Shown in pieces: positions 28,803 through 44,855 of a stretch of 64,000 bases of DNA. Each line of letters begins with the position of its first letter. The first letter of the stretch is position 1. Location of the stretch: contig CAZCTH010000010.1 of the NCBI GenBank assembly GCA_964501435.1, forward strand, positions 3,788-67,787. The letters are read 5' to 3'. This DNA comes from an uncultured Spirochaetales bacterium (GTDB taxonomy: Bacteria; Myxococcota_A; UBA9160; UBA6930). A program made the position numbers and the translations under genes. The notes beneath the pieces are model-generated. The model saw only the letters and a program-made list of their open reading frames with translations. It ran no database searches and was not told the DNA's origin.

Positions 28803-28849
28803 GCTGCGCGCTGCTGCGCGGCCGCCTGGCGGCGGCCTACCGTGCGCGC

Positions 28850-29791: not shown

Positions 29792-29935
29792 GCCCCGGGC
29801 CGCCTGGGCGCGGCGTCGCAGAGCCGCTCGCCGCGCACCGGCAGCGCGTGCGCAGCTTCGCGTGCAACCCTGCGGGCGCGCGGATTCCGCGCCTGCGCCC
29901 CGTCACGCCCCAAGCGCGGCGCGCCACTTCTCTGC

Positions 29936-30871: not shown

Positions 30872-30975
30872 GCGAGCCGTTGGGCCTGGCCCAGCCTTCG
30901 CGTCTGCGAGGGGAGCGAGCGGCGGGCCGCCAGACGCGGAATCCTCTCGTCTCCAGGCTTGGCGGGAGGCGGGGC

Positions 30976-32133
30976 GTGAAGAAGCGCGCGGTGGTCGTGG
31001 GCGTCGGCGAGACGACTTATTACGAGCGCGGGCGCGCGCCGGAGAGCGAGTTCCAGCTCGCCTGCATCGCGATCCGCAATGCGGCCGCCGACGCCGGGCT
31101 CGCGCTCTCCGACGTCGACGGCTTCGTCTCGTACATGGACACGCGCAACGACCCGATGCGCCTCGCGATGGCGCTCGGCTGCAAGCAGCTCACCTACACC
31201 GCGCAGCCCTGGGGCGGCGGCGGGAACGGCATGGCGAGCGCGGTGATGCTCGCCGACGCCGCCGTCTCCGGCGGCTACGCGAAGCACGTGGTCGCGTTCC
31301 GCGCCCTCGCGCAGGGGCAGTTCGGGCGCTTCGGGCAGGCGGGCGGCGGCGGCTACGCGCGCGGCAACGCGGCCTTCACCGCCGCCTACGGCCTGCTCTC
31401 GCCCGCTCAGATCTGCGCGCTCCAGACCACGGCGTTCATGGCGCGCTACGGCATCTCGCAGGAGGCGCTGTGCGACGTGGCGATGGCGTCGTATCACCAC
31501 GCGCAGTCGAACCCGCGCGCGATCCGCTACGGCAAGCCGCTCACGCGCGAGAAGTACCACGCGTCGCGCTGGATCGCGGAGCCGTTCCACCTCTACGACT
31601 GCTGCCCCGAGAACGACGGCGCAGCCGCACTGGTGGTGACGACGCCGGAGCGCGCGCGCGACCTGCGCAAGAAGCCCGTGCCGATCCTCGCCGCCTCGCA
31701 GGGGCTCGGTTTCCGCGACGGCGCGGGCGCGTTCAACGAGCACACCTTCCCGACGGCGCACAAGGCGGTCGTCGGCCGCGCGATCTGGGAGCAGTCGGGC
31801 GTCGCGCCGGCGGACCTCGACGTCGTGCAGTTCTACGAGAACTTCACCGGCCCCGTGCTGATCGCGATGTGCGAGATGGGGCTCGCGCCGCCGGAGGGAA
31901 TCGAGGAGTTCGTCTCGAAGGGCCGGCTGCTCGCGCCGAGCGGCGCGCTGCCGATGAACACGAGCGGCGGCAACATCGGCGAGGCCTACATCCACGGCTT
32001 CGAGTGCGCGGTCGAGGCGGTGCGCCAGGTGCGCGGCGAGAGCACCGCGCAGGTGAAGAACGTCGAACTCTCGCTCGCCGTCGCGGGCCCCGGCTTCGCC
32101 CCGGGCAGCGCCGTGCTCTTCTGCGCCCCGTGA
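30976..32133 (+). CDS. SCP2/Ltp2-like thiolase-superfamily protein
   Basis: VVGVGET, DCCPENDGAAA, VQFYENF, NTSGG, GEAYIHG, EAVRQVRG. Confidence 0.85.
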   Translation: MKKRAVVVGVGETTYYERGRAPESEFQLACIAIRNAAADAGLALSDVDGFVSYMDTRNDPMRLAMALGCKQLTYTAQPWGGGGNGMASAVMLADAAVSGGYAKHVVAFRALAQGQFGRFGQAGGGGYARGNAAFTAAYGLLSPAQICALQTTAFMARYGISQEALCDVAMASYHHAQSNPRAIRYGKPLTREKYHASRWIAEPFHLYDCCPENDGAAALVVTTPERARDLRKKPVPILAASQGLGFRDGAGAFNEHTFPTAHKAVVGRAIWEQSGVAPADLDVVQFYENFTGPVLIAMCEMGLAPPEGIEEFVSKGRLLAPSGALPMNTSGGNIGEAYIHGFECAVEAVRQVRGESTAQVKNVELSLAVAGPGFAPGSAVLFCAP

Positions 32134-32138
32134 CCCGC

Positions 32139-32220
32139 GCCGGGGACGTTGGTTCACGAACGGGCGGCGAGGGCCCGCGGGCGCCCCGTCTTCGCGGACT
32201 CGTGAACCAACGTCCCCGGC
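32139..32220. repeat. Perfect 21-bp inverted repeat with 40-bp spacer
   Basis: GCCGGGGACGTTGGTTCACGA (32139-32159) and TCGTGAACCAACGTCCCCGGC (32200-32220). Confidence 0.92.
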
Positions 32221-32248
32221 CTTTCTCGAACGTTGGGAGGTGAGACCG

Positions 32249-32677
32249 TTGACCCGTTACCTCGGCGATGGCTGGATGCTGCCGGGCACCGACGCGCTCA
32301 CGCGGCGCTTCTTCACGGCGGGGCAACTCGTGTTCCAGCAATGCGCGCATTGCGGCCACGTGCAGCACCCGCCCACCGACGTGTGTGGCGCGTGCCAGGG
32401 CTTCGCGTTCGGCGAGCGCGCGAGCGCGGGGCTCGGCCGCATCGAGAGCCTCACCGTCGCCCACTATGCCGTGCACCCCGCGCTGAAGGACCGCGTGCCC
32501 TACGTGGTGGTGCTCGTCTCCGTCGACGACGTCCCCGGCGTGCGCGTGATCGGCAACGTGCTGAACCGCACCCCGAACGAGGTGCGCGTCGGGCAGCGCG
32601 TGCGCGTGTGCTTCGAGGAGGCGAAGGACCCGCAGTCCGGGGAGATGCTCAGGATTCCGCAGTGGGAGGTGGTCTGA
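32249..32677 (+). CDS. DUF35 Zn-ribbon/OB-fold acyl-CoA-binding protein
   Basis: CAHC...CGAC Zn ribbon, G.IESLT, VPYVVVLV. TTG start 8 nt after GGAGG preferred over the GTG at 32240. Confidence 0.88.
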   Translation: MTRYLGDGWMLPGTDALTRRFFTAGQLVFQQCAHCGHVQHPPTDVCGACQGFAFGERASAGLGRIESLTVAHYAVHPALKDRVPYVVVLVSVDDVPGVRVIGNVLNRTPNEVRVGQRVRVCFEEAKDPQSGEMLRIPQWEVV

Positions 32678-32707
32678 GACACGGAGCGCGCGGGGATTCG
32701 ATCGCCG

Positions 32708-32724
32708 TCGGCACGGTTCGTGCT
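32708..32724 (+). promoter_or_regulatory. Putative sigma-54 promoter
   Basis: TCGGCACG-GTTC-GTGCT with exact GG-N10-GC spacing; intergenic, ~67 bp before the next start. Confidence 0.55.
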
Positions 32725-32790
32725 CTGTCTCCTCTCGCGAGCCTGGCTCGTACGCTCCCGAAGCCCGGGAGCGGTCCAGGAGGGCGAGCC

Positions 32791-33840
32791 GTGCAACAGC
32801 GCGAGTCGAATCGACACAACGAGCGCGCCGGTCTCGGGTCGTGGTGCCCCGCTCGGTTCCGCGGGAACCGCCCGCGAGGCGCTATCCGCTGGGCGACGCT
32901 CGGTTGCGTAGCGGCACTCGCGACGGCCGGGATTTCGCGCGCCGACGAGGTCGTCTATTCGAACCTCGCGACGACCACGGCCTTCGTGTGGAACGCGTCA
33001 GACACCTTCGTGTGGGACGATCTGCAGATCCGTGGCGGCGGGATCCTGAGCGGGCTGTCCCTCGTCGCTGACAACACGCGCCCAGTCCCGGCTGCCGGGA
33101 CGCAGATCACAGTGCAATTGCGCCGACTCGCCGACTCCGGTGGCGATCCGAGAGGCAGCCTCCTGGGAGAGGTCAGCATCCCATTCGCTGGCCCGTACGC
33201 GGCCGCCGCGCCCACGCTGATCTCGATCGACGATCTGGCTTCGCTCGGAATCGTCCTCCCGAAGGGCGAACGCATCGCGTTGGGAGTCAACTTCAACGAT
33301 GCGTCGGGGAGCATGGGGTGGCTCACCTTCGACCCACCGACCATCGGCGCGAGTTCCACCGCGGCGTGGATCGGCGACGTTCCGGTTCCGGTCGTGTGCG
33401 AGGGAATTGTCGGGCACCCCGTCCCCTGCAATTTCGGCGTCGAACTGCGCGTCGCCGATCCCGGCGCGATCGCGGTGCGCATCGACATCGCGCCGCTCAG
33501 CACGACGAACCGCGTCGAACGCCGGAGCCAGGGCGAGCTGGAGGTCGCATTGCTCTCGACCGACGACTTCGACGCCCTTCAGGCTGCGCCCGACACGCTG
33601 CGCTTCGGCGATCCAGCGATGGAGGCCGAAGGCGGGGTCCCCTCGACCCCGGACCGCACCGCTTGGGTGGATGTCGATGGCGACGGGCGACTGGACCTGT
33701 CCGCCCACTTCCCGATCCAGCGACTCTTTCGCGAGCACGCGCTCAGTTCCTACAGCCGCGCGGCGCAGCTCTCGGGACAGACCTCGCTCGGAATTCCGTT
33801 CGCCGGCACCGATTCCGTGTGGGTCGTGAGACCGAAATGA
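32791..33840 (+). CDS. Exported hypothetical protein with C-terminal IDI.P...DVDGDG..DL domain
   Basis: AGGAGG RBS then GTG; hydrophobic segment ending SRA-D; C-terminal IDIAP...ALLSTDDFDA...DVDGDGRLDL. Confidence 0.68.
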   Translation: MQQRESNRHNERAGLGSWCPARFRGNRPRGAIRWATLGCVAALATAGISRADEVVYSNLATTTAFVWNASDTFVWDDLQIRGGGILSGLSLVADNTRPVPAAGTQITVQLRRLADSGGDPRGSLLGEVSIPFAGPYAAAAPTLISIDDLASLGIVLPKGERIALGVNFNDASGSMGWLTFDPPTIGASSTAAWIGDVPVPVVCEGIVGHPVPCNFGVELRVADPGAIAVRIDIAPLSTTNRVERRSQGELEVALLSTDDFDALQAAPDTLRFGDPAMEAEGGVPSTPDRTAWVDVDGDGRLDLSAHFPIQRLFREHALSSYSRAAQLSGQTSLGIPFAGTDSVWVVRPK

Positions 33841-33863
33841 GCCGCGCGGGTTCGCCGGCCCTT

Positions 33864-34760
33864 TCAGATCCCCGCGCCGCCTTCGTAGTCCGTCTCGCCC
33901 TGCCCGCCCGCGAGGCTGCGCGTCGCGCGGCCGGCGGCGATGCCCGCTGCGAGCAGCAGCGCGGCGAACACGAGCTGCGGGCCGGTGCGTGGCAACGCGG
34001 CCAGCGCGTCGCTCGCCCACTGGTCGACTTCGCGCGCGAGGATCAGCACCGCCATCGCCAGCACGAAGCCGGCGAACGCGCGCCGCAGCGACGCGGGGTT
34101 CACGCGCTTCGCGAAGCCCGAGCCGAGGAACGAGCCCGCGATCGCGGCGAGCGTCACGACCGCGACGAGCGGCCACGGCACGACGACGTGGCTCGCGTAG
34201 CCGGCGAAGCCGGCGGTGCAGTTCATCACGATGATGACGAGCGAGGTGCCGACCGCGCGCTGCATCGGGAGCCCGGCCCACAAGGCCAGCGCGGGCACGA
34301 TCAGGAAGCCGCCGCCCGCGCCGATCAGGCCGGTGAACGTTCCGACGGCGAGGCCCTGCACGACGAGGCGCGCGGGCGCGCGCTGCACCGCACTCTCGGG
34401 TGGCGCGCGGCGGCCGCGCCACATGGCGACGGCCGTGATTGCCATCATCACCGCGAAGAGCAGGAGAAGCAGCGCGCCGTCGAGGAACGTCGCCACGCGG
34501 CCGCCGGCATACGCGCCGGTCATGCCCGCGGCACCGAACGAGCCGGCGGTGCGCAGGTCCACGTTGCCCGCGCGCCAGTGCTGCGCCGCGGCCGAGGCGC
34601 TCGCGGCCCCGACGACGACGAGCGAGCTCGCGATCGCGATCTTCGCCTCGAGCCCGAACACGTAGGCCAGCAGCGGGACGGTGAGGATCGAGCCGCCGCC
34701 GCCGAAGAAGCCGAGCGCGATGCCGATCAGGACGCTGAGTGCCGTGCCGAGGGTGGCCAC
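33864..34760 (-). CDS. TauE/SafE sulfite exporter family protein
   Basis: GFFGGGGSILTVP and GLIGAGGGFLIVP duplicated motifs; AVGTSL. Confidence 0.9.
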   Translation of the reverse strand: MATLGTALSVLIGIALGFFGGGGSILTVPLLAYVFGLEAKIAIASSLVVVGAASASAAAQHWRAGNVDLRTAGSFGAAGMTGAYAGGRVATFLDGALLLLLFAVMMAITAVAMWRGRRAPPESAVQRAPARLVVQGLAVGTFTGLIGAGGGFLIVPALALWAGLPMQRAVGTSLVIIVMNCTAGFAGYASHVVVPWPLVAVVTLAAIAGSFLGSGFAKRVNPASLRRAFAGFVLAMAVLILAREVDQWASDALAALPRTGPQLVFAALLLAAGIAAGRATRSLAGGQGETDYEGGAGI

Positions 34761-34785
34761 TACGAGGCGCGGGGGGCGCCGGCCC

Positions 34786-35358
34786 TCACAGCGCCGCGAG
34801 CGCCGCGCGGAATGCGGCCAGGCTCATGTCCGTGTCGGGAGGCGGCCCGGACGCGCGCGCCGCCTGCTCGATCCAGTCGAGGGCCCGCGCGGCGTCGGCC
34901 GGGGTCGGCTCCTCGGCCGCACTGCCGAGCGCGGCGTCGAGCTTCGCCCGCACATCCGCCGGCGTCTGAGCGCTCACCTGCGCGAGCCAGGCGAGCGCGT
35001 TGTCGACGAGCGCCGCCACGCTGCGGTAGCGCGGTCGCTCCACGGGGAGTCCCGCGCGATTCCACGCCATCATGCCGCCGGTGAGGTTCACGCCGCCGTC
35101 GCTGCCCCGCGCGGCGAGCAGTTGGATCGCCTTCACCGAGCGCACGCCCGAGCGACAGATCATCAGCAGCGGCTTGCCGCGCGGAATCTCGCCTAGGCGC
35201 GCCTCGAGCTCGGGCAGCGGAATCGAAACCGCACCGCGGATGTGGCCGAGCGGGCCGGCGAACTCGTGCGCGCCGCGCACGTCCACCACCGCGAAGTCGG
35301 CGAGGCGCGCGTTCGCCTCGCTCGGCGCCAACTCGAGAACGGTCGTCCCGTCGGGCAT
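34786..35358 (-). CDS. Rhodanese-domain protein with C-terminal extension
   Basis: VVDVR, GHIRGA, active loop CRSGVRS, NLTGGMMAW. Confidence 0.88.
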   Translation of the reverse strand: MPDGTTVLELAPSEANARLADFAVVDVRGAHEFAGPLGHIRGAVSIPLPELEARLGEIPRGKPLLMICRSGVRSVKAIQLLAARGSDGGVNLTGGMMAWNRAGLPVERPRYRSVAALVDNALAWLAQVSAQTPADVRAKLDAALGSAAEEPTPADAARALDWIEQAARASGPPPDTDMSLAAFRAALAAL

Positions 35359-35430
35359 GGGAGCCTCCGACGCGCCACGCTAGCGCGGCGCGCACGGTTC
35401 CCGAAGCGCGCACCGAGGGGAGAGGCCGAG

Positions 35431-37011
35431 ATGCGCTGGCAGACCACCATCTTCCACAGCATCGGGGCGGCCCGCGCGTGGCGGCGCGTTTGCGCGCTCG
35501 CCGCCGGCGCGGCGGCGCTGGCCCTGGCGCAGTGCGTGTCGCCGCCGGGCGACGCGCCGCCCGTCACCCACGGCGTCGCGGTCGGCGACGTCACCGACGC
35601 GAGCGCGGTGCTCTGGGCGCGCTCGGACCGCGAGGCCACGCTGCGCGTGCGCCTCTCGCCGGACCCCTGGGCGGGCCTGCTCACCCGCACGCGAATGCCT
35701 CCCGAGCTCCGCGTCCGCGCGGACGACGACTTCACCGGACAGATCGCGCTGGAGCGCCTCCAGCCGGCAACGACCTACCGCTATGCGGTGTGGTTCGAGG
35801 ACGCGAACGGTCGCGGGCCGACGAGCGAGGGAAGCTTCCGCACCGCACCGGCGCCGCGCGTCGCCGCGCCCGTCTCGATCGCGTGGACGGGGGACTTCGC
35901 CGGCCAGAACGTGTGCCGCCACGCGAGCGAGGGCTTCCCGATCTTCGACGCGATCGCGGCCGACGCGCCGGACTTCTTCGTCGGCCTCGGCGACATGATC
36001 TACGCCGACAATCGCTGCGAACCGATCGGGCGCTACGGCAACCCGCAGGTTCCCGGCGAGTTCGCCGAAGCCACCGACCTGCCCGGCTTCTGGGCGCACT
36101 GGCGCTACGCGCGGGCCGACGCGCGCTTCCAGCGCCTGCTGGCGCGCGTGCCCTACGTCGGGATCTGGGACGACCACGAAGTCGTGAACGACTTCGGCCC
36201 GAGCACGGCCACGCGCGCCACGCCGCCGTACGTCCCGGGCGCGCCGCTGATGCCGCTCGGCCTGCGGGCTTTCCTCGACTACACGCCGCTCGCGAGCGAC
36301 GCGCGCGAACCGGAGCGCCTCTACCGCGCGCTGCGCTGGGGCCGCCACGTCGAGCTGTTCGTGCTCGACAACCGCCAGTACCGCGACGCGAACGCCGCAC
36401 CCGATTCGCCCGCGAAGACGATGCTGGGGCGCGAGCAACTCGCGTGGCTGCGCGCGCGCCTCGCCGCTTCGGACGCGACCTGGAAGATCGTCGTGAGCAG
36501 CGTGCCGCTCTCGATCCCGACGGGCTCGCCGCCCGAAGCGGGCCGCGACGGCTTCGCGAACTACGACGCCGATCCTGCGCCCGCGCAGAGCGCCGCGCCG
36601 CCGACGGCGACCGGCTTCGAGTCCGAGCTCGCGTCGATCTTCGGCGCGCTGCGCGCGGCGCGCGCGAACGCGCTCTTCATCACCACCGACGTCCACTTCG
36701 CCGAGGTCTTCCGCTACACGCCGCTCCCGAGCGACCCCGAGTTCCACGTGCACGAGGCGGTGGTCGGCCCCGGAAACGCGGGCGTCTTCCCGAACCGCGC
36801 GTTCGACACCACCTTCGGCGCCGAGAGTCTCTTCTTCCACGGCCCGGCGAGTGCCGATGCGATCTCGAGCTGGGACGAAGCGAAGCGCTGGTTCAACTAC
36901 GGCACGCTCGACGTGGACGCGGCCGGGGTGCTCGTGCTGCGCGTCAAGGGCACGACGGGGGCGACACTGTATGAGCTGCGCCTCGCGCCAGGTGCGGCGG
37001 CCGGGAATTAG
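35431..37011 (+). CDS. phoD: Alkaline phosphatase D family protein
   Basis: HGVAVGDVT, GDMIYAD, IWDDHE, LDNRQYR, TTDVHFA. Confidence 0.9.
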   Translation: MRWQTTIFHSIGAARAWRRVCALAAGAAALALAQCVSPPGDAPPVTHGVAVGDVTDASAVLWARSDREATLRVRLSPDPWAGLLTRTRMPPELRVRADDDFTGQIALERLQPATTYRYAVWFEDANGRGPTSEGSFRTAPAPRVAAPVSIAWTGDFAGQNVCRHASEGFPIFDAIAADAPDFFVGLGDMIYADNRCEPIGRYGNPQVPGEFAEATDLPGFWAHWRYARADARFQRLLARVPYVGIWDDHEVVNDFGPSTATRATPPYVPGAPLMPLGLRAFLDYTPLASDAREPERLYRALRWGRHVELFVLDNRQYRDANAAPDSPAKTMLGREQLAWLRARLAASDATWKIVVSSVPLSIPTGSPPEAGRDGFANYDADPAPAQSAAPPTATGFESELASIFGALRAARANALFITTDVHFAEVFRYTPLPSDPEFHVHEAVVGPGNAGVFPNRAFDTTFGAESLFFHGPASADAISSWDEAKRWFNYGTLDVDAAGVLVLRVKGTTGATLYELRLAPGAAAGN

Positions 37012-37688
37012 TTCAGATAGTCAAGGAACGTCCCCTCGCCGGTGACGCCGCCGCAGGCCTCGAGCTGGGCGCGCAGTGCGGCGCGGCGGAGGCGGCGGCG
37101 CTCGCGCTTGGCGTCGGTGTCGCAGAGGCGCCCCAGCACCTCGTCGGACCACGCGATGTGCTTGCGCGTGCGGCGCACGGCGTCCTCGAGCAGCTCGATC
37201 GTGGGCGCGTCGCTGATCTGGTCGGTCTCGCGCATGGTGCGCTCGTAGACCGCGAGCAGGTGCGGCTTCAGCACGTCGAACACGCCGGCGAGCTTCTCGA
37301 TCGAGAGGTCGGGCCGCTCGGGCTCGGAGAGCGCCTTCACGAAGGCGGCGAAGCCGTCGTTCGCGGCCTCGCTCGCGTCCACGGCCTTGCGACCGCAGCG
37401 CAGCTCGGGGAGCCGCTTGCCGAACGCGTCCGCGGCGAGCGCGGCGTCCCACACGATCTTGCCGAGGCCGGTCTTCACCGGCACTTCGGGAACCGTCGCG
37501 ATCCAGCCCGCGAGGATCATCATCGTCCACTCTTCCGCGTAGCGGAAGTTGCGGACGCGGCGCGCGATCGACTCGACGTCGTAGCGGCCATGGAGCTCGC
37601 GCAGGTCGGCGGGCACCTCGAAGGCGCCGTAGGGCGCGAAGGTCGTGCGCTCGTCGCGGCCGTAGCCGGGGTACAGCCGCTCGCTCAC
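37008..37688 (-). CDS. Degenerate ferritin-like helical protein (partner of the DUF455-type gene)
   Basis: GTGA overlap with the upstream gene; helices align by eye with the neighbour but lack the ExxH ligands (WDAALA, RRTRKH). Confidence 0.72.
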   Translation of the reverse strand: MSERLYPGYGRDERTTFAPYGAFEVPADLRELHGRYDVESIARRVRNFRYAEEWTMMILAGWIATVPEVPVKTGLGKIVWDAALAADAFGKRLPELRCGRKAVDASEAANDGFAAFVKALSEPERPDLSIEKLAGVFDVLKPHLLAVYERTMRETDQISDAPTIELLEDAVRRTRKHIAWSDEVLGRLCDTDAKRERRRLRRAALRAQLEACGGVTGEGTFLDYLN

Positions 37689-38641
37689 GACTTCGCCCCC
37701 GCGGCCTGCGCTTGCCTCGCCTGGTGCCGCTCGCGCAGCACGCGCGCGGCCTCGCGCATCGTCTCGCGCGACGGCCCCTCGCCGCACAGGCCGACCAGCT
37801 CCTTCAGCTCTTCCTCGGTGAAGCCCGCTTCGCGGCGATCCTCGAACGCGATCGGGATCGCCGAGTCCTTCCGCTCCGAGCGCGCGCCGCCGAAGTTGAA
37901 CTGCTTGTCCACCTGCTTGCGGAAGTCGTTCGCGCGCTGCAGGCGCGCCGGATCGTTCTTGCAGAACTCGCGCACCCAGTCGCTGCCGAAGCGCACGTGG
38001 GTGAGCTCGTCGGCGAGCACGTAGTCCACCGCCTGCTTCATCTTCTCGTCGCCGATCTCGTCCGCGTAGCGGATCAGGTCGCGGAACACGTCGCAGGCGA
38101 GGCCTTCGAGCCCACGGTTCACGCCGGCGACGCGCAGGGCCGGATCGTCGGCGCAGGCGCACTCGAACAGGAACGTGCTCTCCGGGAACATGCCGGGCGT
38201 CGCGCCCACGTGCTCGAGCAGCTTCTCGTAGATCTGCACGTGCCGCGCCTCGTCCCAGCACTGCCGCGCCATGTTCATCTTGAACTCCCAGGGCGCGTCG
38301 GGGAAATCCCAGAGCGAGCGGCCGGCGCCCTCGAGCGCCTGCAGCTCGCCGACGTACACGCCGTGCATGCGCATCTTGAGGCGCGTGTCGGTGGCGGGCT
38401 CGCCGGGCTTCAGCGACGAGGTGTTGGTCATCAGGGAGAAGCCCGGGCCGTAGGCGTCGTAGAGCGGCTCCGCGGACGTGCCGCGCACCGCCTTCTCCAC
38501 GATCGGCGCGAACTTCTCGAACAGCGCGACCACCGCGTCGACGTCGTCGGGGAGCTGCGCGATCAGGGTCGAGAGCGCCGTCGTCTGCCGCGTGAAGCGG
38601 CTGTCGCGGGCGAGCTCTTCGTGCTGGATGAAGCGCTTCAT
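37685..38641 (-). CDS. Ferritin-like diiron protein (DUF455-type)
   Basis: GELQA, MARQCWDEARH, LEGLACD, ADELTHVRFG, EAGF: a complete E/ExxH/E/ExxH ligand set. ATGA overlap with the RND stop codon. Confidence 0.85.
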   Translation of the reverse strand: MKRFIQHEELARDSRFTRQTTALSTLIAQLPDDVDAVVALFEKFAPIVEKAVRGTSAEPLYDAYGPGFSLMTNTSSLKPGEPATDTRLKMRMHGVYVGELQALEGAGRSLWDFPDAPWEFKMNMARQCWDEARHVQIYEKLLEHVGATPGMFPESTFLFECACADDPALRVAGVNRGLEGLACDVFRDLIRYADEIGDEKMKQAVDYVLADELTHVRFGSDWVREFCKNDPARLQRANDFRKQVDKQFNFGGARSERKDSAIPIAFEDRREAGFTEEELKELVGLCGEGPSRETMREAARVLRERHQARQAQAAGAKS

Positions 38642-41600
38642 CGCCGTTCCTCCGGTTGAGGGCCGGGCGAGTCTAGGAGCGGGCGCGCAGCCTCCGCTAC
38701 CGGCCCCCCGCGGACGAGCGCGCGCGCCCGGCCGACGCCGCGCGCCGCCCACGCCACCCCGTCCTCCGCGAGCGTGTACACCGTCGGCACGACGATCAGG
38801 GTGAGCAGCGTCGAGGACAGGAGCCCACCGATCACGAGGATGCCCATCGGGTTCCGAAACTCGGCGCCGTCGCTGCGCGCGAGGGCGACGGGGATCATGC
38901 CGGCGATGGTCGCGAACTGGGTCATCAGCACGGGGCGCAGGCGCACGGGCCCCGCGCGCGCGATCGCGTCGCGCGCCGAGAGGCCTTCGGCGCGCAGCTG
39001 GTTCGCGTAGTCGACGAGCAGGATGCCGTTCTTCATGACGAGGCCCATCAAGGCGATCAGGCCGATCTGCGCGAAGATCGACATCGGCGTGCCGGTGAGG
39101 CGCAGCGCGACGAATGCGCCGACGAACGAGAGCGGCGCCGAGAGCATGATCACCGCCGGCTGCGTGAAGCTCTCGAACTGGCTCGCGAGCACGACGTAGA
39201 GCGCCAGCAGCGCGAGCGCGAAGGCGATAACGACGGCGTCCGCCGTGTCCTGCATGCGCTCCGTCGCGCCCTCCCACTCGCCGACGTACCCGGGCGGCAG
39301 CCCCACCTCCGCGAGGATCGCCTCGAAGCGCTCCACGGCGACGCCGAGCGCGAGCCCGCCCGGCGTGTTCGCGTAGATCGTCACGCGCCGCCCGCGGTTC
39401 TCGCGCTCGATCTCGGAGGGGCCGCTCGCGACGCGCAGGTGCGCCACGTTCGCGAGGTCCACGAGCGCCCCGCTGGCGCTCCGCACCTGGAGCTGGCTCA
39501 CGTCCTCGAGCTGGTCGCGCTGGCCCTCCTCGAGCCGCACGCGAACGTCGGTCCGCTTGCCGGCGTCCTGGAAGGTCGCGATGTCGAGCCCGCCGATCGC
39601 GGCGCGCGCGACCCCGGCCAGCGCCCGCACGGGCACGCCGAGATCGGCGCTGCGCTCGCGGTCGATCCACACCTGCAGCTCCGGCCGCCCGCGCTCGAGG
39701 CTCGACTTCACGTCGAGGAAGCGCGGGTCGTCGCGCATGCGCGCCACCACGGCGCTCGCGACGCGGTCGAGCTCGTCGAGGCTCGGGCCCTGGATGCTGT
39801 ACTCGACGTTGTAACTGGTGAAGCCGCCGCCCGACATCCAGGCGACCTCGCTCACGCTGAGCTGCTTCGCCTGCGGCGCCGCGGCGCGCACCGCCTCGCG
39901 CGCGCGGTCCATGATCGCGAACTGGCTTTCGTCGCGGTCGCGCTTCGGGGTCGTCTCGGCGTACAGGCTGATCTCGTTGACCGCGCCGCGCACGCCACCG
40001 CCGACCGTCACGAAGTCGCGCGCCACGCCGCGGTCGCTGCGCAGCGCCGCGCCCACGCGCTGCGCCACCGCGCGCGCCTCGGCGATGCCCGTGCCGAGCG
40101 GCAGCTCGACCACGCCCTCGAACTCGCTGCGATCGACCTTCGGCGCGAACTCCATCGGCACGCCGCCCGCGAGCACGCCGCCGGCCGCGATGGCGGCGAC
40201 CGTCAGCGCCACCACCGCGAGGCGGTGGCGGAGCGAGCGCTCGAGCACGCGGCCGTACCACGCCTCGAGCCCGGCGTAGAAGCGCTCGAGCCAGAGGAAC
40301 GCGCCGCCGTGGTGCTCCTCTCGCCGCAGCACCCGCGCGCACAGCATCGGCGTGATGGTGACCGCGACGAGCAGCGAGATCATCACGGAGAACGAGATCG
40401 CGAGGCCGTACTCGAAGAAGAAGCGACCGATCATGCCGCGCAGGAACGCGATCGGCAGGAACACGGCGAGCACCGAGGCCGTCGCCGCGACGACCGCGAG
40501 GCCGATGCGGTCCGTTCCGTGCGACGCCGCCTCGAAGGGCGCGACGCCGGCGTCGATCTCGCGATGGATCGCTTCGAGCACGACGATCGCGTCGTCGATC
40601 AGGAGCCCGATCGACACCGAGAGCGCCATCAGCGTGAGGATGTTCAGCGTGAAGCCCATCGCGTAGAACAGGAAGAACGTCGCCACCACCGAGGTCGGGA
40701 TCGCGATCGCGACGATCAGGGTGCTGCGCACGCTGCGCAGGAAGGCGAGCGTCGCGAGCACGGCGAGCAGCGCGCCCACCCCGATGTCCACCGCGACGTC
40801 GTGGGCGGACGCCTCGATGAAGCGCGAGACGTCGCGCACGACGCCCAGCGACACGCCCGCCGGCGCGCCCTGCGCGAGCTCCGCGATCGCCGCCTTCACC
40901 TCGCGCGCCACGGCGACCGTGTTGCGTCCGGACTGGCGGCGCACGTCGAGCGCAACGCCCTGCACGCCGCCGAACTCCGCGTAGGAGCGCTCGTCCTCCA
41001 TGCCGTCCTCGACGCGCGCGACGTCGCGCACGAGGGTCGGCGCGCCGTCGCGGAACGCGACGACGATCTGCTCGAAGCCGCGCACGACGTCGACCTCGCC
41101 CTTCGTCTTGAACGAGAACTCCGCGCGTCCGCCCTCCGTCTCGAGCCGGCCGCCCGGCACGTCCGCGTGCTCTGCGCGGATCGCCTGGATCACGTCGTCG
41201 ACGCTGAGCGCGTAGCTGCGCAGTCGATCCGCATCGAGCCAGATGCGCACCTCGCGCTCGCGCCCGCCGACGATCGTCGCCGACCCGACGCCCGGGATGC
41301 GCTGGAGGCGCTCCTTCACGACGTCGTCGGCGTAGTCGGTGAGGTCGCGGATCGGCAGCGCGCCCGAGACCATCACCGAAAGGATCGGCGACGCGGACGG
41401 ATCGACCTTCTCGACGATCGGCGGCTCGGCATCGGGCGGCAGCTCGGCGCGCGCGCGCGCGACCTTGTCGCGCACGTCCTGCGCCTTCTGGTCGGGGTCC
41501 TCCTCGAGCTCGAACTGCACGAAGATCTGCGCGAGCCCCTCGGAGCTGACCGAGCGCAGCGTGTCGATGCCGGAGATCGTGTTGATCTCCTCCTCGAGGG

Positions 41601-41796
41601 CGTCGGTCACCTCGCTCTCGATCGTCTCGGGCGTCGCGCCGGGCAACAGCGCGGTCACGGCGACGTACGGGAACTCGATCTTCGGCATCAGGTCGACGCC
41701 GATGCGCGGCAACGAGAGCGCGCCGATCGCGGTGAGCGTGCCGATCATCATGGTCGCCAGCACGGGCCGGCGGATGCAGAGGTCAGCGATCCGCAC
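38638..41796 (-). CDS. RND efflux permease (AcrB/HAE1-like)
   Basis: CIRRPV, DLMPKIEFP, SIGLLIDDAIVVLE, GLVMKNGILLVDY, RLRPVLMT. Confidence 0.95.
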   Translation of the reverse strand: MRIADLCIRRPVLATMMIGTLTAIGALSLPRIGVDLMPKIEFPYVAVTALLPGATPETIESEVTDALEEEINTISGIDTLRSVSSEGLAQIFVQFELEEDPDQKAQDVRDKVARARAELPPDAEPPIVEKVDPSASPILSVMVSGALPIRDLTDYADDVVKERLQRIPGVGSATIVGGREREVRIWLDADRLRSYALSVDDVIQAIRAEHADVPGGRLETEGGRAEFSFKTKGEVDVVRGFEQIVVAFRDGAPTLVRDVARVEDGMEDERSYAEFGGVQGVALDVRRQSGRNTVAVAREVKAAIAELAQGAPAGVSLGVVRDVSRFIEASAHDVAVDIGVGALLAVLATLAFLRSVRSTLIVAIAIPTSVVATFFLFYAMGFTLNILTLMALSVSIGLLIDDAIVVLEAIHREIDAGVAPFEAASHGTDRIGLAVVAATASVLAVFLPIAFLRGMIGRFFFEYGLAISFSVMISLLVAVTITPMLCARVLRREEHHGGAFLWLERFYAGLEAWYGRVLERSLRHRLAVVALTVAAIAAGGVLAGGVPMEFAPKVDRSEFEGVVELPLGTGIAEARAVAQRVGAALRSDRGVARDFVTVGGGVRGAVNEISLYAETTPKRDRDESQFAIMDRAREAVRAAAPQAKQLSVSEVAWMSGGGFTSYNVEYSIQGPSLDELDRVASAVVARMRDDPRFLDVKSSLERGRPELQVWIDRERSADLGVPVRALAGVARAAIGGLDIATFQDAGKRTDVRVRLEEGQRDQLEDVSQLQVRSASGALVDLANVAHLRVASGPSEIERENRGRRVTIYANTPGGLALGVAVERFEAILAEVGLPPGYVGEWEGATERMQDTADAVVIAFALALLALYVVLASQFESFTQPAVIMLSAPLSFVGAFVALRLTGTPMSIFAQIGLIALMGLVMKNGILLVDYANQLRAEGLSARDAIARAGPVRLRPVLMTQFATIAGMIPVALARSDGAEFRNPMGILVIGGLLSSTLLTLIVVPTVYTLAEDGVAWAARGVGRARALVRGGPVAEAARPLLDSPGPQPEERR

Positions 41797-42871
41797 GCGC
41801 GACCTCGAGCGCGACGCGCGCGCCGTCGCTCAGCTTGGGCGCGTTCGGGCCGTAGAGCACGACGTCGCCCTCGCGCAGCCCCGCGACGACCTCCACGCGG
41901 GTCGCGTCGAGCTCGCGCGTCTCGACGGCGCGCCGCAGCGCGCGGTCGTCCGACGCGACGTACACGTAGCGATCCTCGGCGCCGCCCTGGAGCGCCGCGC
42001 GCGGCAGCACGAGCGCTTCGCGCGGCGCGGGCAGGATCTCCGCACGCGCGAACAGGCCCGGCTTCAGCGCGAGGTCCGCGTTCTCGATCGGCAGCCGCAC
42101 CTCGAAGGCGCGCGAAGCGGCGTCGACGCGGTCGTTCACCACTGCGACGCTCGTCTCGAACGCGGCGTCCACGCCGTCCACCCGCACGAGCGCTGGCGTG
42201 CCCGGCTTCACCCGCGCGAGGTGCAGCTCCGGGATTTGCACCACCGCTTCGACGCGGTCGGCCTTCATCAGCTGCACCACCGGCGCGCTGGTCATCTGCG
42301 CGGACAGCATCGTGCCCTCGTCCACGTAGCGGCGCGTGATCACGCCCGGGTACGGCGCGCGCACGACCGTGTCGGCGAGGGCCTGCGCCGCCATCGCGCG
42401 GGCGCTCTGCGCGCCCCCCGCGCGCGCGGCTGCCATCTCGTAGGCGGTGCGCGCGTCGTCGAGGTGCCCCTGGGAAGCGACCTGCTCCGCGAAGAGCTGC
42501 TCGACGCGGGCGACGCGGCGCTGCGCGTTCTCGGCCTCGGCCTCCGCGAGCCGCAGCGCCTGCTCGGCCTCGGCGAGGCGCAGGCGGTAGTCGACCTGCC
42601 GCGTGGTGAAGAGCGGAGCGCCCGCCGCCACACTCGCGCCGACGTCCACGTGCACGACGTCGATGATGCCGCTCACGCGCGGTCCGATCTCCGTCGCCTT
42701 GTCCGCGACGATCGACCCGGTGCCGAGCACGACTTCGGGTACCGCCTCGCGCAGGACGGGGACGCTCGCGACGGAGATCGCCTGCGCCGCGGCCGGCGCC
42801 GCCTCGCCGTCGGGTTCTTGGCCGCACGCGAGCGCGAGCGCAAGGCATGCAGACACCGCGAGGCGATTCAC
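41783..42871 (-). CDS. RND periplasmic adaptor (MFP)
   Basis: Lipobox LALAC; IGPRVSG, VRAPYPGVI, LKPGLFARA. Confidence 0.92.
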   Translation of the reverse strand: MNRLAVSACLALALACGQEPDGEAAPAAAQAISVASVPVLREAVPEVVLGTGSIVADKATEIGPRVSGIIDVVHVDVGASVAAGAPLFTTRQVDYRLRLAEAEQALRLAEAEAENAQRRVARVEQLFAEQVASQGHLDDARTAYEMAAARAGGAQSARAMAAQALADTVVRAPYPGVITRRYVDEGTMLSAQMTSAPVVQLMKADRVEAVVQIPELHLARVKPGTPALVRVDGVDAAFETSVAVVNDRVDAASRAFEVRLPIENADLALKPGLFARAEILPAPREALVLPRAALQGGAEDRYVYVASDDRALRRAVETRELDATRVEVVAGLREGDVVLYGPNAPKLSDGARVALEVARADR

Positions 42872-43524
42872 CGCGCGCCCCCCGCGATCGCGTTCGCGAA
42901 CAGTGCGCGCACGCGCGGCGCCATGCGCGCGAGCGCGGCCGCGTCGTCCGACTCGACTGCACGGGCCGCGCTCGTGAGCACCGCGCCGACCAGGCTCGAT
43001 GCGAACGTCTCGGGGTCGAGGCCGCCCAACTGGCCGGCGCGCGCGGCGCGGCGTGCGACCTCGACCACCCAGGCGCTGAAGCGGTCGAAGATCTTGTGCG
43101 TGCGATCGCCCAGCTCCCCGCGCGCGCGCCAGGGCATGCCGTGCGTCGCGCGCATGGTGATGCGCACGATGTCGCGGTTCTGCTCGAAACAGGCGAACAG
43201 GGCGTCGGAAACCGCGAGCAGCTTCTCGGCCGCGTCGGCGGTGGCCTCCACGCGCGCGCGGACCGCGGCTTCGACCGCTTCGCCCACGCTCGCCGCGACC
43301 GCCTCGAACAGCTCGTCCTTGCCCGCGAAGAGCTGGTAGACGCTCGCCAGCGACACCTCGGCGCGCGCCGCGATCTCGCTCATCTGAGCGCCGAAGTAGC
43401 CCTTCTCCGAGAACACGCGCGAAGCCGCGGCAATCACGTCGTCGCGGCGCAGGGCGATCTCGCGCGCGCGCCGGCCCGCGCGCGGAGAGCGGATGGGGCG
43501 TCGCGGAGCCGCTGCGCGAACCAT
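42868..43524 (-). CDS. TetR/AcrR family regulator
   Basis: AASRVFSEKGY...IAARAEVSLASVYQLFAGKDELF HTH; GTGA overlap with the MFP. Confidence 0.92.
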   Translation of the reverse strand: MVRAAAPRRPIRSPRAGRRAREIALRRDDVIAAASRVFSEKGYFGAQMSEIAARAEVSLASVYQLFAGKDELFEAVAASVGEAVEAAVRARVEATADAAEKLLAVSDALFACFEQNRDIVRITMRATHGMPWRARGELGDRTHKIFDRFSAWVVEVARRAARAGQLGGLDPETFASSLVGAVLTSAARAVESDDAAALARMAPRVRALFANAIAGGAR

Positions 43525-43628
43525 GGATACTGCCTCCAGAATCCGGATTACCGTACGCGAACGCGCGAGTTCTCGCACCTACGTGCCGCTCCCTCGGGCA
43601 AGCGCGTTTGCGACGGAGCGCGGGCGCC

Positions 43629-44855
43629 TCAGGCGGCGCGAACGCGGGGCGCGGCCGCGAGCCAGGCGACGCCGACCGCGAGCAGCGCGCCACCCGCGAG
43701 TGCGATCGTCGCGCGGGGGCCGACGGCCGTGCCGAGCGCGCCGCCGAGCGCCGCGCCCGCGAGCGCAGCCCAGCGGCCGAGGAACGAGAACGCGCCGTGG
43801 ACGCGGCTCTGCACCTCGGGCGCCGCCGCCTCCTGGCGTGCGCTGAGCGCGTGGATCTCGAACACCGCGAGCCCCGCGTCGCCGAGCTGCTGCGCGAAAA
43901 TGCACGCGGCGCCGAGCCAGCTCGGCCCGGGCGCGAACGCGAGCGCAGCGGTGGCGACCGCCCCGCCGACGAGCCCGACGCCCATCGTGCCGCGCGCTCC
44001 GAAGCGTGCGCCGAGCCAGCTCGCCGCGAGGCTGCTGCCGAGCGCGGCGATGGAGCCCGCGGCGAACAGGAGGCCGAGCACGCCGGGCGCAAAGCCGAGC
44101 TCGGCGCGCACGAACAGGAAGTAGACGACGCCGAGCGCCTCGCTGCACGCGACGGCCGCCAGCGAGGCCCCGAGCAGCGCACGCAGTCGCGCGTCGGCGC
44201 GAATCGCGCTTAGGCCGGCGAGCGCCCGCGCGAGACCGCGCTCGCGCGCGGGCCCCGTGTGCGGCGCGGGCTCGCGCTCGGGGATGCCCGCGAGCAGCGC
44301 GGCGGAGGCGAGGTAGCTGAACGCGTCGGCGACGAGCGCGAGCGGCGCGGACAGCCACTGAACGAGCCAGCCGCCGCCGCCGAACGCGAGCGCCTCGGCG
44401 GCGTTGGTGCCGGCCGCGATGCGCGCGTTGCTCGCGACGAGCTGCGAGCTCGACGCCAGCGACGGCACGAAGGCCTGCCGCGCGACGCCGAACGCGAAGG
44501 ACAGCGCGCCCGAGAGCGCCGCGAACGCCCAGAGCAGCGGCATGGAGAGCGCGCCGAGCGCGTAGGCCGCGGGCACCGCGAGCAGGAGCGCCGCGTGACC
44601 GAGATCGGCACCGATCATCACGCCGCGCTTCCGGCGCGGCTCGATCCAGGCGGCGAGCCCGAGCCCGAACGTGAGGCCGGGCACGAGCCGCGCGATGCTC
44701 AGCGCCGACATCTGTGCGGCGCTTGCACCGAGGGCGTCGATCGCGACGAACGGCAGCGCGACGGCGGTGAGCATCGAGCCGAAGTTCGAGACGGTGGCAG
44801 CGGCGACGACGCGCGCGAGGTCTCGCTCCGCCCTGCCGCTGGCGCCGTCGCTCAC
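43629..44855 (-). CDS. MFS transporter
   Basis: About 12 hydrophobic segments; WIEPRRKRGVMIGADL loop. Confidence 0.88.
   Translation of the reverse strand: MSDGASGRAERDLARVVAAATVSNFGSMLTAVALPFVAIDALGASAAQMSALSIARLVPGLTFGLGLAAWIEPRRKRGVMIGADLGHAALLLAVPAAYALGALSMPLLWAFAALSGALSFAFGVARQAFVPSLASSSQLVASNARIAAGTNAAEALAFGGGGWLVQWLSAPLALVADAFSYLASAALLAGIPEREPAPHTGPARERGLARALAGLSAIRADARLRALLGASLAAVACSEALGVVYFLFVRAELGFAPGVLGLLFAAGSIAALGSSLAASWLGARFGARGTMGVGLVGGAVATAALAFAPGPSWLGAACIFAQQLGDAGLAVFEIHALSARQEAAAPEVQSRVHGAFSFLGRWAALAGAALGGALGTAVGPRATIALAGGALLAVGVAWLAAAPRVRAA

What the first reader, a model, noticed from the sequence alone, without database searches (positions are those of the whole stretch)
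37008..43524. TetR-MFP-RND operon translationally coupled to the diiron pair, with no outer-membrane factor
Seen: all four junctions overlap (TetR/MFP GTGA, MFP/RND 14 bp, RND/diiron ATGA, diiron/partner GTGA). Neither diiron protein has a signal peptide, and no TolC-like gene lies in the window. Known: TetR repressors upstream of RND pumps usually sense the pump substrate. Inference: one inducer switches on both export and cytoplasmic oxidative modification (modify-and-pump detoxification, or make-and-export of a small molecule). I do not recognise this arrangement from described systems.
Basis: partly seen in the sequence, partly recalled or inferred. Interest (0 to 1): 0.8.

Follow-up and report, generated by a model that had tools for sequence, protein, structure and literature searches.

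The report
Efflux operon joined to ferritin-like pair
An ordinary TetR-controlled RND efflux-pump cassette sits, in one narrow lineage of Myxococcota, directly in front of a widely conserved two-gene ferritin-like unit (DUF455 plus partner) that elsewhere stands alone with its own promoter-like box. The tight five-gene string is real, but it is most likely a recent juxtaposition rather than a dedicated modify-and-pump system.

Summary
Five minus-strand genes (TetR, MFP lipoprotein, HAE1-type RND permease, DUF455 ferritin-like protein, Pfam-less partner) have the four overlapping junctions described. Neither ferritin-like protein has a signal peptide, and no TolC/OEP gene was found in the window.

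DUF455+partner is an autonomous unit:
- The partner follows DUF455 in 78 of 80 genome loci, and none of these has an adjacent RND gene.
- Distant relatives fuse the two into one polypeptide.
- None of 80 RND relatives (49-73% identity) has the pair within 8 kb.

Most close relatives carry MFS-DUF455-partner with a 70-140 nt spacer. In the window the TetR-MFP-RND cassette occupies that spacer. The same junction occurs only in a narrow subclade (RND at least 83% identical: L175, L176/L177). The window's nearest relative with context (L094) lacks it again.

The last ~14 RND codons look non-coding. They retain a -10-like box (TAGACT) and a GGAGGA ribosome-binding site at the position where the pair's relatives carry such a box. 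So the pair probably keeps its own promoter, with possible TetR-dependent read-through on top.

A pump without a linked outer-membrane gene is routine. Shared-substrate coupling is not excluded (about 0.15-0.2).

The parts
43629..44855 (-). MFS exporter-type transporter. It is the gene that directly precedes the DUF455 pair in most close relatives, so it marks the left edge of the cassette's position.
   Evidence: PF07690 and TIGR00900 hits. MFS lies next to DUF455 with only a 70-140 nt spacer in L001, L006, L009-L011 and L013.
43525..43628 (-). Spacer between MFS and tetR: the presumed promoter/operator region of the efflux cassette. It contains a GGAGG ribosome-binding site, a GTAATC box (43551..43546) and a 10-bp palindrome AATCCGGATT (43540-43549).
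   Evidence: Sequence read. The GTAATC box recurs upstream of tetR in L175, L095 and L034. The palindrome is not conserved in L175 and is compatible with chance.
42868..43524 (-). TetR-family regulator.
   Evidence: PF00440, E=4.7e-14. No specific NCBIfam equivalog. MVRA start shared with L175.
41783..42871 (-). Periplasmic adaptor (MFP) lipoprotein. Its GTG start overlaps the tetR stop (GTGA).
   Evidence: HlyD_D23 and TIGR01730, 208 bits. LALAC lipobox.
38638..41796 (-). HAE1-type RND permease (MdtB/C-like). Its start overlaps the MFP end by 14 nt. Its stop is the TGA inside the ATGA of the DUF455 start.
   Evidence: ACR_tran 928 bits, NF033617 884 bits. Junctions.
38670..38675 (-). -10-like hexamer TAGACT (within the conserved box CTCCTAGACTC, 38679..38669). 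It lies inside the RND C-terminal tail, at -34..-29 from the DUF455 ATG, and is a candidate internal promoter of the pair.
   Evidence: The box is conserved in window, L175 and L176 while the flanking tail diverges. It holds the only CTA among 108 Leu codons of the RND gene. TAnnnT is enriched at -35..-31 upstream of DUF455 across 88 loci.
38648..38653 (-). GGAGGA ribosome-binding site of the DUF455 gene, inside the RND tail.
   Evidence: GGAG/GAGG lies at -16..-4 in 83 of 88 loci.
37685..38641 (-). DUF455-family ferritin-like protein with a canonical diiron ligand set (E99/E104, E131-x-x-H134, E179, E212-x-x-H215). Cytoplasmic.
   Evidence: PF04305 97.8 bits. Invariant residues in 22 sequences. 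AlphaFold model pLDDT 78, helical bundle. Weak fold matches to aldehyde-deformylating oxygenase, bacterioferritin, R2lox and PaaC.
37008..37688 (-). Partner subunit: a ferritin-like helical bundle without an ExxH motif. Its GTG start overlaps the DUF455 stop (GTGA).
   Evidence: No Pfam hit at threshold; sub-threshold Ferritin hits. Model pLDDT 70. Weak fold matches to ADO, toluene-4-monooxygenase beta and PaaC. Follows DUF455 in 78 of 80 loci. Fused to DUF455 in distant relatives.
35431..37011 (+). Convergent PhoD-like phosphatase. Its end overlaps the partner's stop codon by 4 nt, marking the right edge of the gene string.
   Evidence: PF09423 and PF16655. The same PhoD position is seen in L094.

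Best explanation
Two independent units have been placed end to end.

Unit 1 is an ordinary TetR-MFP-RND (HAE1) efflux cassette. It presumably works with an outer-membrane channel encoded elsewhere.

Unit 2 is an autonomous, strongly conserved two-subunit cytoplasmic ferritin-like enzyme of Myxococcota. The DUF455 subunit carries the diiron site. The partner is a ligand-poor ferritin-like subunit, probably forming a heterodimer in the way PaaA/PaaC or the alpha/beta subunits of soluble diiron monooxygenases do. Its substrate is unknown; a hydrophobic or acyl-type compound is my guess.

In the window's narrow lineage the cassette occupies what is otherwise the short MFS-DUF455 spacer. The RND reading frame now runs through the pair's old leader and stops at the TGA nested in the DUF455 ATG. 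The tight ATGA junction is therefore a by-product of that position, not a sign of co-evolved coupling. The pair's own -10-like box and ribosome-binding site survive inside the RND tail. The pair is therefore probably still transcribed from its own promoter, with TetR-dependent read-through possibly adding to it.

Shown: the anatomy, the distribution and the sequence conservation. Inferred: promoter activity, heterodimer formation, enzymatic role and the direction of the rearrangement.
For: 1. The pair is the conserved unit.
- The partner follows DUF455 in 78 of 80 genome loci, and none has an adjacent RND.
- Contexts vary widely.
- Distant partner relatives are N-terminal domains fused to a C-terminal DUF455 domain.

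2. From the RND side, none of 80 relatives (49-73% identity) has DUF455 or the partner within 8 kb. The closest of these, L095 (73%), is TetR-MFP-RND followed by SDR and NMO genes.

3. Close relatives (DUF455 86-91% identical) carry CoA-transferase x2 - GST - MFS - DUF455 - partner with a 70-140 nt spacer. The window has the same flanks with the cassette in that spacer.

4. The same junction is found only in L175 (RND 91%) and L176/L177 (RND 83%), in the same reading frame. L178 (RND 78%) has no pair.

5. L094 is sister to the window with 100% bootstrap support. It has intact pair genes but no RND or MFS upstream.

6. Evidence that the RND tail is former leader sequence.
- 5 of the last 14 RND codons end in A/T, against a 2.8% background (P about 3e-5).
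- The only CTA of 108 Leu codons lies in the box CTCCTAGA(C/A)TC, which is conserved in window, L175 and L176.
- TAnnnT occurs at -70..-13 in 49 of 88 loci, against 22 +/- 3.8 in shuffles, with a peak at -35..-31. This is where the window's TAGACT sits.

7. Diiron ligands are invariant in DUF455. Both models have ferritin-like folds.
Against: - The junction has persisted across about 11% nucleotide divergence (window vs L176). It remains overlapping in three lineages, which could reflect selection for co-expression.
- Cassettes of the same type (RND 65-66% identical) lie 5-6 kb from the pair in L034 and L044/L089, more often than a rough chance estimate predicts.
- The conserved box is read in the same frame (LL[D/E]S) in all three lineages, so protein-level constraint is not excluded.
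- The sigma-70 consensus scan found no promoter anywhere in the region.
- The DUF455 tree is unresolved apart from the window/L094 pair. A single gain plus one loss is inferred, not proven.
- There are no transcript data.
Confidence: 0.65

Rival explanations
1. Functional modify-and-pump (or make-and-export) module. One TetR-sensed hydrophobic compound induces a single five-gene transcript. The two-subunit diiron enzyme oxidises the compound in the cytoplasm, and the RND pump expels it or its product.
For: - All junctions overlap and no terminator-like site lies at any of the junctions.
- The junction is kept in L175 and L176/L177.
- Cassettes of the same type lie within 5-6 kb of the pair in L034 and L089. 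In L034 the order is TetR-MBL-DUF455-partner-P450x3-TetR-MFP-RND on one strand.
- L178 places the cassette in the same kind of P450/thiolase/luciferase-like neighbourhood that often surrounds the pair.
- The closest folds to the diiron subunit act on hydrophobic substrates.
Against: - The pair lacks an adjacent RND in 80 of 80 genome loci, and the RND relatives lack the pair in 80 of 80 loci.
- Sister lineages and the nearest relative L094 keep an intact pair without the pump.
- A promoter-like box and ribosome-binding site are retained in front of the pair.
- No reductase or ferredoxin gene is present in the operon.
Confidence: 0.2
2. Pure read-through hitch-hiking. The pair lost its own promoter when the cassette arrived and is now expressed only as the tail of the TetR-controlled transcript, without any shared substrate.
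For: - No sigma-70 consensus promoter was detected.
- The -10-like box changed from TATCCT/TATCTT in cassette-free relatives to TAGACT/TAGAAT in cassette-bearing ones.
- The overlapping stop/start would allow translational re-initiation.
Against: - TAGACT and TAGAAT also occur as the upstream box in cassette-free loci (L015, L003).
- The box is conserved at nucleotide level with a rare codon.
- The strong GGAGGA site is retained.
Confidence: 0.12
3. Assembly chimera: the RND/DUF455 junction was created by mis-assembly of a metagenome bin.
For: Three Logan contigs all end at the same point inside the RND gene (window 39034), which hints at a graph branch there.
Against: - Those contigs span the junction itself; the longest (L090) was checked as 100% identical.
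- Independent samples L175, L176 and L177 carry the same junction.
Confidence: 0.01

Closest known systems
TetR-regulated HAE1 RND efflux operons with an unlinked outer-membrane factor (E. coli acrR/acrAB and mdtABC with tolC elsewhere; established knowledge)
   Same: TetR-family regulator, lipoprotein adaptor and 12-TM RND permease in one cluster. The best NCBIfam matches are RND_permease_2 and MdtC/MdtB. No OMF gene is linked.
   Different: tetR is co-directional and overlaps the adaptor gene rather than being divergent. Two cytoplasmic ferritin-like genes are appended with an overlapping junction. The substrate and outer-membrane partner are unknown.
PF04305 / DUF455 ferritin-like family (uncharacterised)
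   Same: The Pfam hit is well above threshold. The four-helix-bundle diiron motif is invariant.
   Different: This is a distinct, highly conserved Myxococcota subfamily (66-91% identity across the 80 genome loci). It is always paired with a Pfam-less partner, and in distant relatives fused to it. No function is known for the family.
PaaA/PaaC of phenylacetyl-CoA epoxidase, and the alpha/beta subunits of soluble diiron monooxygenases (toluene-4-monooxygenase)
   Same: A catalytic ferritin-like diiron subunit is encoded next to a second ferritin-like subunit that lacks the metal ligands. PaaC and T4MO-beta are among the partner's fold matches. A 4HBT (PaaI-type) thioesterase often follows the pair in close relatives.
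   Different: Fold matches are weak (Foldseek E of at least 0.2 for the partner and at least 0.009 for DUF455). No PaaB/PaaE-type or ferredoxin/reductase gene is linked. There is no sequence-level homology.
Cyanobacterial aldehyde-deformylating oxygenase (ADO)
   Same: It is the best structural match of the DUF455 model: a single ferritin-like diiron bundle acting on a lipid substrate.
   Different: TM-score normalised to the query is only about 0.4, at 16-19% identity. ADO has no partner subunit.

Membership tests
Tripartite RND (HAE1) efflux system | Full-length RND permease (ACR_tran, about 1000-1050 aa) | tested here: met
   PF00873 928 bits over residues 4-1010. NF033617 884 bits, below NCBI's subfamily cut-off of 1250 but full length.
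Tripartite RND (HAE1) efflux system | Periplasmic adaptor (MFP) encoded next to the permease | tested here: met
   TIGR01730 207.9 bits (cut-off 94.9), HlyD_D23, lipobox N-terminus, 14-nt overlap with the RND gene.
Tripartite RND (HAE1) efflux system | Outer-membrane factor (TolC/OEP family) | tested here: not met
   No OEP hit in 37 scanned genes of the 64-kb window. An unlinked OMF elsewhere in the genome cannot be tested with this window.
Tripartite RND (HAE1) efflux system | Local TetR repressor binding an operator in front of the operon and responding to pump substrates | not testable with these tools
   The TetR_N domain is present. The candidate GTAATC box is shared with related cassettes, but no conserved palindrome was found.
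DUF455 (PF04305) ferritin-like diiron proteins | Pfam model match above the gathering score | tested here: met
   97.8 bits against 34.3.
DUF455 (PF04305) ferritin-like diiron proteins | E...ExxH...E...ExxH ligand set on a four-helix bundle | tested here: met
   E99/E104, E131/H134, E179 and E212/H215 are invariant in 22 sequences and lie on the four long helices of the model.
Heteromeric diiron oxygenases with an inert ferritin-like partner (PaaAC-like, BMM alpha/beta-like) | Second subunit with a ferritin-like fold lacking the metal ligands | tested here: inconclusive
   The partner model is a helical bundle (pLDDT 70). Fold matches to ADO, T4MO-beta and PaaC are weak (E 0.2-0.4). The sequence has no ExxH. 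Ferritin Pfam hits are sub-threshold. hhalign against DUF455 is not significant.
Heteromeric diiron oxygenases with an inert ferritin-like partner (PaaAC-like, BMM alpha/beta-like) | Physical association of the two subunits | tested here: inconclusive
   The evidence is indirect: gene adjacency in 78 of 80 loci and single-polypeptide fusions of a partner-like domain with a DUF455 domain. No complex model or experiment is available.
Heteromeric diiron oxygenases with an inert ferritin-like partner (PaaAC-like, BMM alpha/beta-like) | Linked electron-transfer component (reductase, ferredoxin, PaaE/PaaB-type) | tested here: not met
   None lies in the operon or among the scanned neighbours in the window, nor in the annotated contexts L001-L007, L094 and L176.
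   Adjacency is seen only in the window and in L175 and L176/L177, with one shared junction frame. A 5,944-bp contig carrying both P0243 and P0131 is inferred to have it too. Adjacency is absent in 80 of 80 pair loci and 80 of 80 RND loci.

The most novel reading that the evidence does not exclude
The juxtaposition is adaptive. In this Myxococcota subclade the two-subunit DUF455 diiron enzyme and the RND pump act on the same TetR-sensed hydrophobic compound: cytoplasmic oxidation coupled to export. The looser proximity of the same cassette type to the pair, among P450-rich clusters in L034 and L089, would reflect the same pathway. That would give the first functional handle on the DUF455 family.
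Probability: 0.15. Interest if true: 0.6.

Novelty: new variant of a known kind. Interest (0 to 1): 0.3.

Why it matters
If the coupling were functional, it would link an uncharacterised diiron enzyme family (DUF455) to a transport phenotype and give a route to its substrate.

As the evidence stands, there are two more modest points of value. First, DUF455+partner is defined as an obligate two-subunit ferritin-like unit: it is widespread and strongly conserved in Myxococcota, and fused into one protein in distant relatives. That makes it a clean target for enzymology. Second, this is a worked example of how a cassette placed in a short spacer of a GC-rich genome produces an apparently translationally coupled operon while the downstream promoter survives inside the upstream gene's tail. 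It is a caution against reading function from overlaps alone.

Tried and rejected
- **Flanking repeats.** I searched for direct or inverted repeats flanking the cassette (38500-43750) as a sign of a mobile element. Only GC-rich noise came back, with no terminal repeats.
- **Consensus scan.** The sigma-70/terminator scan gave 0 promoter-like sites. Its 3 terminator-like hits are no more than in shuffles (mean 1.7). This is uninformative in a 72% GC myxobacterial sequence.
- **Palindrome as TetR operator.** The 10-bp palindrome AATCCGGATT upstream of tetR is not conserved in L175 and is compatible with chance, so I rejected it as evidence.
- **Partner as a DUF455 paralogue.** hhalign of the DUF455 and partner profiles was not significant (probability 1%). 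Paralogy is suggested only by one weak DUF455 hit on a distant partner-like domain (P0438).
- **Solved structures by sequence.** The PDB sequence search found no informative relative for either protein.
- **Literature.** Searches for DUF455, COG2833 and PF04305 found no functional study. Most 'DUF455' hits appear to come from the word-start matching of the search (e.g. longer DUF numbers) rather than to this family.
- **RND-tail length.** It is not diagnostic of read-through. Homologues have non-conserved tails of similar length.
- **Monophyly of cassette-bearing loci.** The DUF455/partner tree is unresolved except for the window+L094 pair.
- **Conserved third gene.** I looked for a third gene consistently near the pair. 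The most frequent families within 10 kb are P450 (15 of 46 long loci), luciferase-like monooxygenases (13 of 46) and thiolase/ChsH2 (8 of 46). None is constant.

Full report
**1. Observation**

The window is 70-75% GC throughout. Homologues are almost all from Myxococcota MAGs. On the minus strand I find:
- TetR, 43524..42868
- MFP, 42871..41783
- RND, 41796..38638
- a DUF455-family protein, 38641..37685
- a 226-aa partner, 37688..37008

These come from the ORF list. An independent GC3-based gene call gave the same coordinates. Pfam and NCBIfam confirm TetR_N, HlyD_D23/TIGR01730, full-length ACR_tran (928 bits; best subfamily RND_permease_2, MdtB/C-like) and PF04305 (97.8 bits against a cut-off of 34.3). 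The partner has no hit.

The two ferritin-like proteins have hydrophilic N-termini, and the MFP has a lipoprotein-type N-terminus. No OEP/TolC family was found in 37 of about 49 called genes, which covers every gene of plausible size.

The junction is reproduced in contigs from other sequencing runs; the longest (L090) is 100% identical to window 30517-39034. Overlaps are frequent in this genome: 11 of 34 same-strand neighbour pairs overlap.

**2. The ferritin-like pair**

The DUF455 protein belongs to a very strongly conserved clade. The best 120 database relatives are 72-89% identical. Glu/His residues are invariant on the four long helices of the model: E99/E104, E131-x-x-H134, E179 and E212-x-x-H215. 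This is the canonical ferritin-like diiron ligand set.

The AlphaFold model (pLDDT 78) matches solved structures only weakly. The best hits are aldehyde-deformylating oxygenase, bacterioferritins, R2-like ligand-binding oxidase and PaaC.

The partner is equally conserved and has no ExxH motif (read directly from the sequence). It is predicted as a helical bundle (pLDDT 70). Its weak matches are to ADO, the toluene-4-monooxygenase beta subunit and PaaC, with sub-threshold Ferritin Pfam hits.

A profile search of 1.84 billion representative proteins found 707 relatives. Seven of the ten distant relatives I scanned are proteins of about 410-550 aa in which the partner-like domain is fused N-terminally to a DUF455 domain. 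Together with adjacency in 78 of 80 genome loci, this argues that the two proteins work as one physical unit: a catalytic diiron subunit plus a ligand-poor ferritin-like subunit. The logic resembles PaaA/PaaC or the alpha/beta subunits of soluble diiron monooxygenases. This is an analogy, not membership. The fold matches are weak and no reductase component is linked. No functional study of DUF455 was found.

**3. Is the pump part of that unit? Synteny from the pair's side**

In 80 species-level genome loci carrying the pair (66-91% identity), none has an RND gene adjacent to it. Eight have some RND gene within 10 kb:
- Four carry an unrelated paralogue (38-41% identity) transcribed divergently.
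- Two carry 27-28% relatives.
- Two (L034 and L044, which is the same contig as L089) carry the same cassette type (RND 65-66%, MFP 53-54%, and in L034 TetR 49%), 5-6 kb away with other genes between.

Close relatives of the window locus (DUF455 86-91% identical: L001, L006, L009-L011, L013) show CoA-transferase x2 - GST - MFS - DUF455 - partner, with a 70-140 nt MFS-DUF455 spacer. Other equally close loci (L005, L007/L008, L012) have other genes or rearrangements upstream of the pair, but none has an RND. The window has the same flanks: two CoA-transferases, a GST and an MFS upstream. In the window, TetR-MFP-RND sits in that spacer.

**4. Synteny from the pump's side**

Among 80 metagenome loci with RND relatives (49-73% identity), 78 have the MFP upstream and 7 have a TetR homologue detectable with the window TetR. 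None has DUF455 or the partner within 8 kb. The closest of these, L095 (73%), is followed by SDR and nitronate-monooxygenase genes.

A protein search then found closer orthologues:
- L175 (RND 91%) has exactly the window's order: CoA-transferases, GST, MFS, TetR, MFP, RND, then DUF455 cut by the contig end.
- L176/L177 (RND 83%) have MFP-RND-DUF455 (4-nt overlap)-partner-4HBT-rhodanese-TauE.
- A further 5,944-bp contig seems to carry both an 84% RND (P0243) and an 89% partner (P0131). This is inferred from matching contig lengths only.
- L178 (RND 78%) has a divergent TetR and no pair.

So the junction is real elsewhere, but only in a narrow subclade. It is in the same reading frame in all three lineages, which points to a single origin.

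**5. Gain and loss**

A DUF455+partner nucleotide tree places L094 as sister to the window with 100% bootstrap support. The two are 92.6% identical at nucleotide level. Both have the PhoD gene downstream, but L094 has no RND or MFS upstream. The rest of the tree is unresolved.

The cassette-free loci share the spacer motif CCGTATC(C/T)T. The cassette-bearing loci share CTCCTAGA(C/A)TC. The simplest reading is one placement of the cassette in the spacer, with at least one later separation (L094). Either way the pair stays intact with or without the pump.

**6. How the tight junction arose, and the internal promoter**

The RND C-terminal tails of homologues are non-conserved and of similar length, so tail length is not diagnostic. 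The last 14 codons in the window are compositionally non-coding-like: 5 end in A/T, against 2.8% in the rest of the gene (P about 3e-5). The only CTA among 108 leucine codons lies in the conserved box.

That box contains TAGACT (38675..38670) at -34..-29 from the DUF455 ATG. It is followed by GGAGGA (38653..38648).

Across 88 non-redundant loci:
- A TAnnnT hexamer occurs at -70..-13 in 49, against 22 +/- 3.8 in shuffles and 11 in a control window further upstream.
- Its position peaks at -35..-31.
- GGAG/GAGG precedes the start in 83.
- TAGACT and TAGAAT also serve as the box in cassette-free loci (L015, L003).

I conclude that the RND frame reads through the pair's old leader to the TGA nested in the ATG, and that the pair probably keeps its own promoter.

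Caveats:
- The box is in the same frame (LL[D/E]S) in all three lineages.
- The consensus scan is silent.
- No transcript data exist.

No terminator-like site lies at any of the junctions, so read-through from the tetR promoter may add TetR-dependent expression.

**7. Comparison with known systems**

The efflux part is a standard HAE1 cassette. A missing linked outer-membrane factor is the rule for many RND operons (acrAB and mdtABC use an unlinked tolC; established knowledge). Related cassettes here also lack one.

The pair is a member of PF04305 by score and motif. It works like, but cannot be filed under, the PaaAC or BMM-type two-subunit oxygenases.

A dedicated 'RND + DUF455' module fails the test of recurrent, independent adjacency.

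**8. Verdict**

Co-transcription is possible and the arrangement recurs in very close relatives. However, the comparative evidence favours a lineage-specific juxtaposition of two autonomous units, with a retained internal promoter.
- The modify-and-pump reading keeps a probability of about 0.15-0.2, because the junction has persisted and because the same cassette type lies near the pair in two more distant genomes rich in P450 genes (L034, L089).
- Interest is modest (0.3). The most useful product is the definition of DUF455+partner as an obligate two-subunit ferritin-like unit of unknown function.

Noticed in passing
P0383, P0385, P0406, P0414, P0419, P0425, P0443 (distant relatives, not in the window): Single polypeptides of about 410-550 aa combine an N-terminal partner-like domain with a C-terminal DUF455 domain. 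This is a Rosetta-stone fusion. Its domain order is the reverse of the gene order in the window.
   Followed up: partly
L034:7989-20895 (Myxococcota chromosome OZ245817.1): One-strand cluster TetR - metallo-beta-lactamase-fold protein - DUF455 - partner - three cytochromes P450 - TetR - MFP - RND (RND 66% identical to the window's). A fourth P450 lies divergently upstream. This is the best lead for a looser functional neighbourhood of pair and pump.
   Followed up: partly
window 39034 (inside the RND gene); L090-L092: Three independent Logan contigs of the same organism all end at exactly this position, 397 nt upstream of the DUF455 start. This could be a repeated k-mer shared with an RND paralogue, or strain heterogeneity at this point.
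   Followed up: no
window 35431-37011 (+) and 37008-37010: A PhoD-like phosphatase gene converges on the partner gene and overlaps its stop codon by 4 nt, leaving no room for a terminator. L094 has PhoD in the same place. Relatives lacking PhoD have a 4HBT thioesterase there, which the window has lost.
   Followed up: partly
window 5974-7047 (+) and 7066-10374 (-): Adjacent DUF1329-like and DUF1302-like genes. The DUF1302-like protein is unusually long (1102 aa) and only residues 333-413 match the model.
   Followed up: no
window 28799-32677 (+): Two luciferase-like monooxygenases are followed by a Thiolase_C_1 protein and a ChsH2-type zf/OB protein. The same set recurs near the DUF455 pair in L001, L005, L089, L176 and L178, which suggests a lipid or steroid-side-chain-type catabolic neighbourhood.
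   Followed up: partly
L057:9324-9926: A TetR-family gene (29% identical to the window's TetR) lies directly upstream of DUF455 on the same strand, without any pump. TetR-type control of the pair may therefore arise independently in other lineages.
   Followed up: no
window 43540-43549: A perfect 10-bp palindrome AATCCGGATT lies between the GTAATC box and the ribosome-binding site of tetR. It is unique in the window and not conserved in L175.
   Followed up: yes
L029 and L039: These are the only two of 80 genome loci where no partner gene was detected downstream of DUF455 by tblastn. The partner may be lost or strongly diverged.
   Followed up: no
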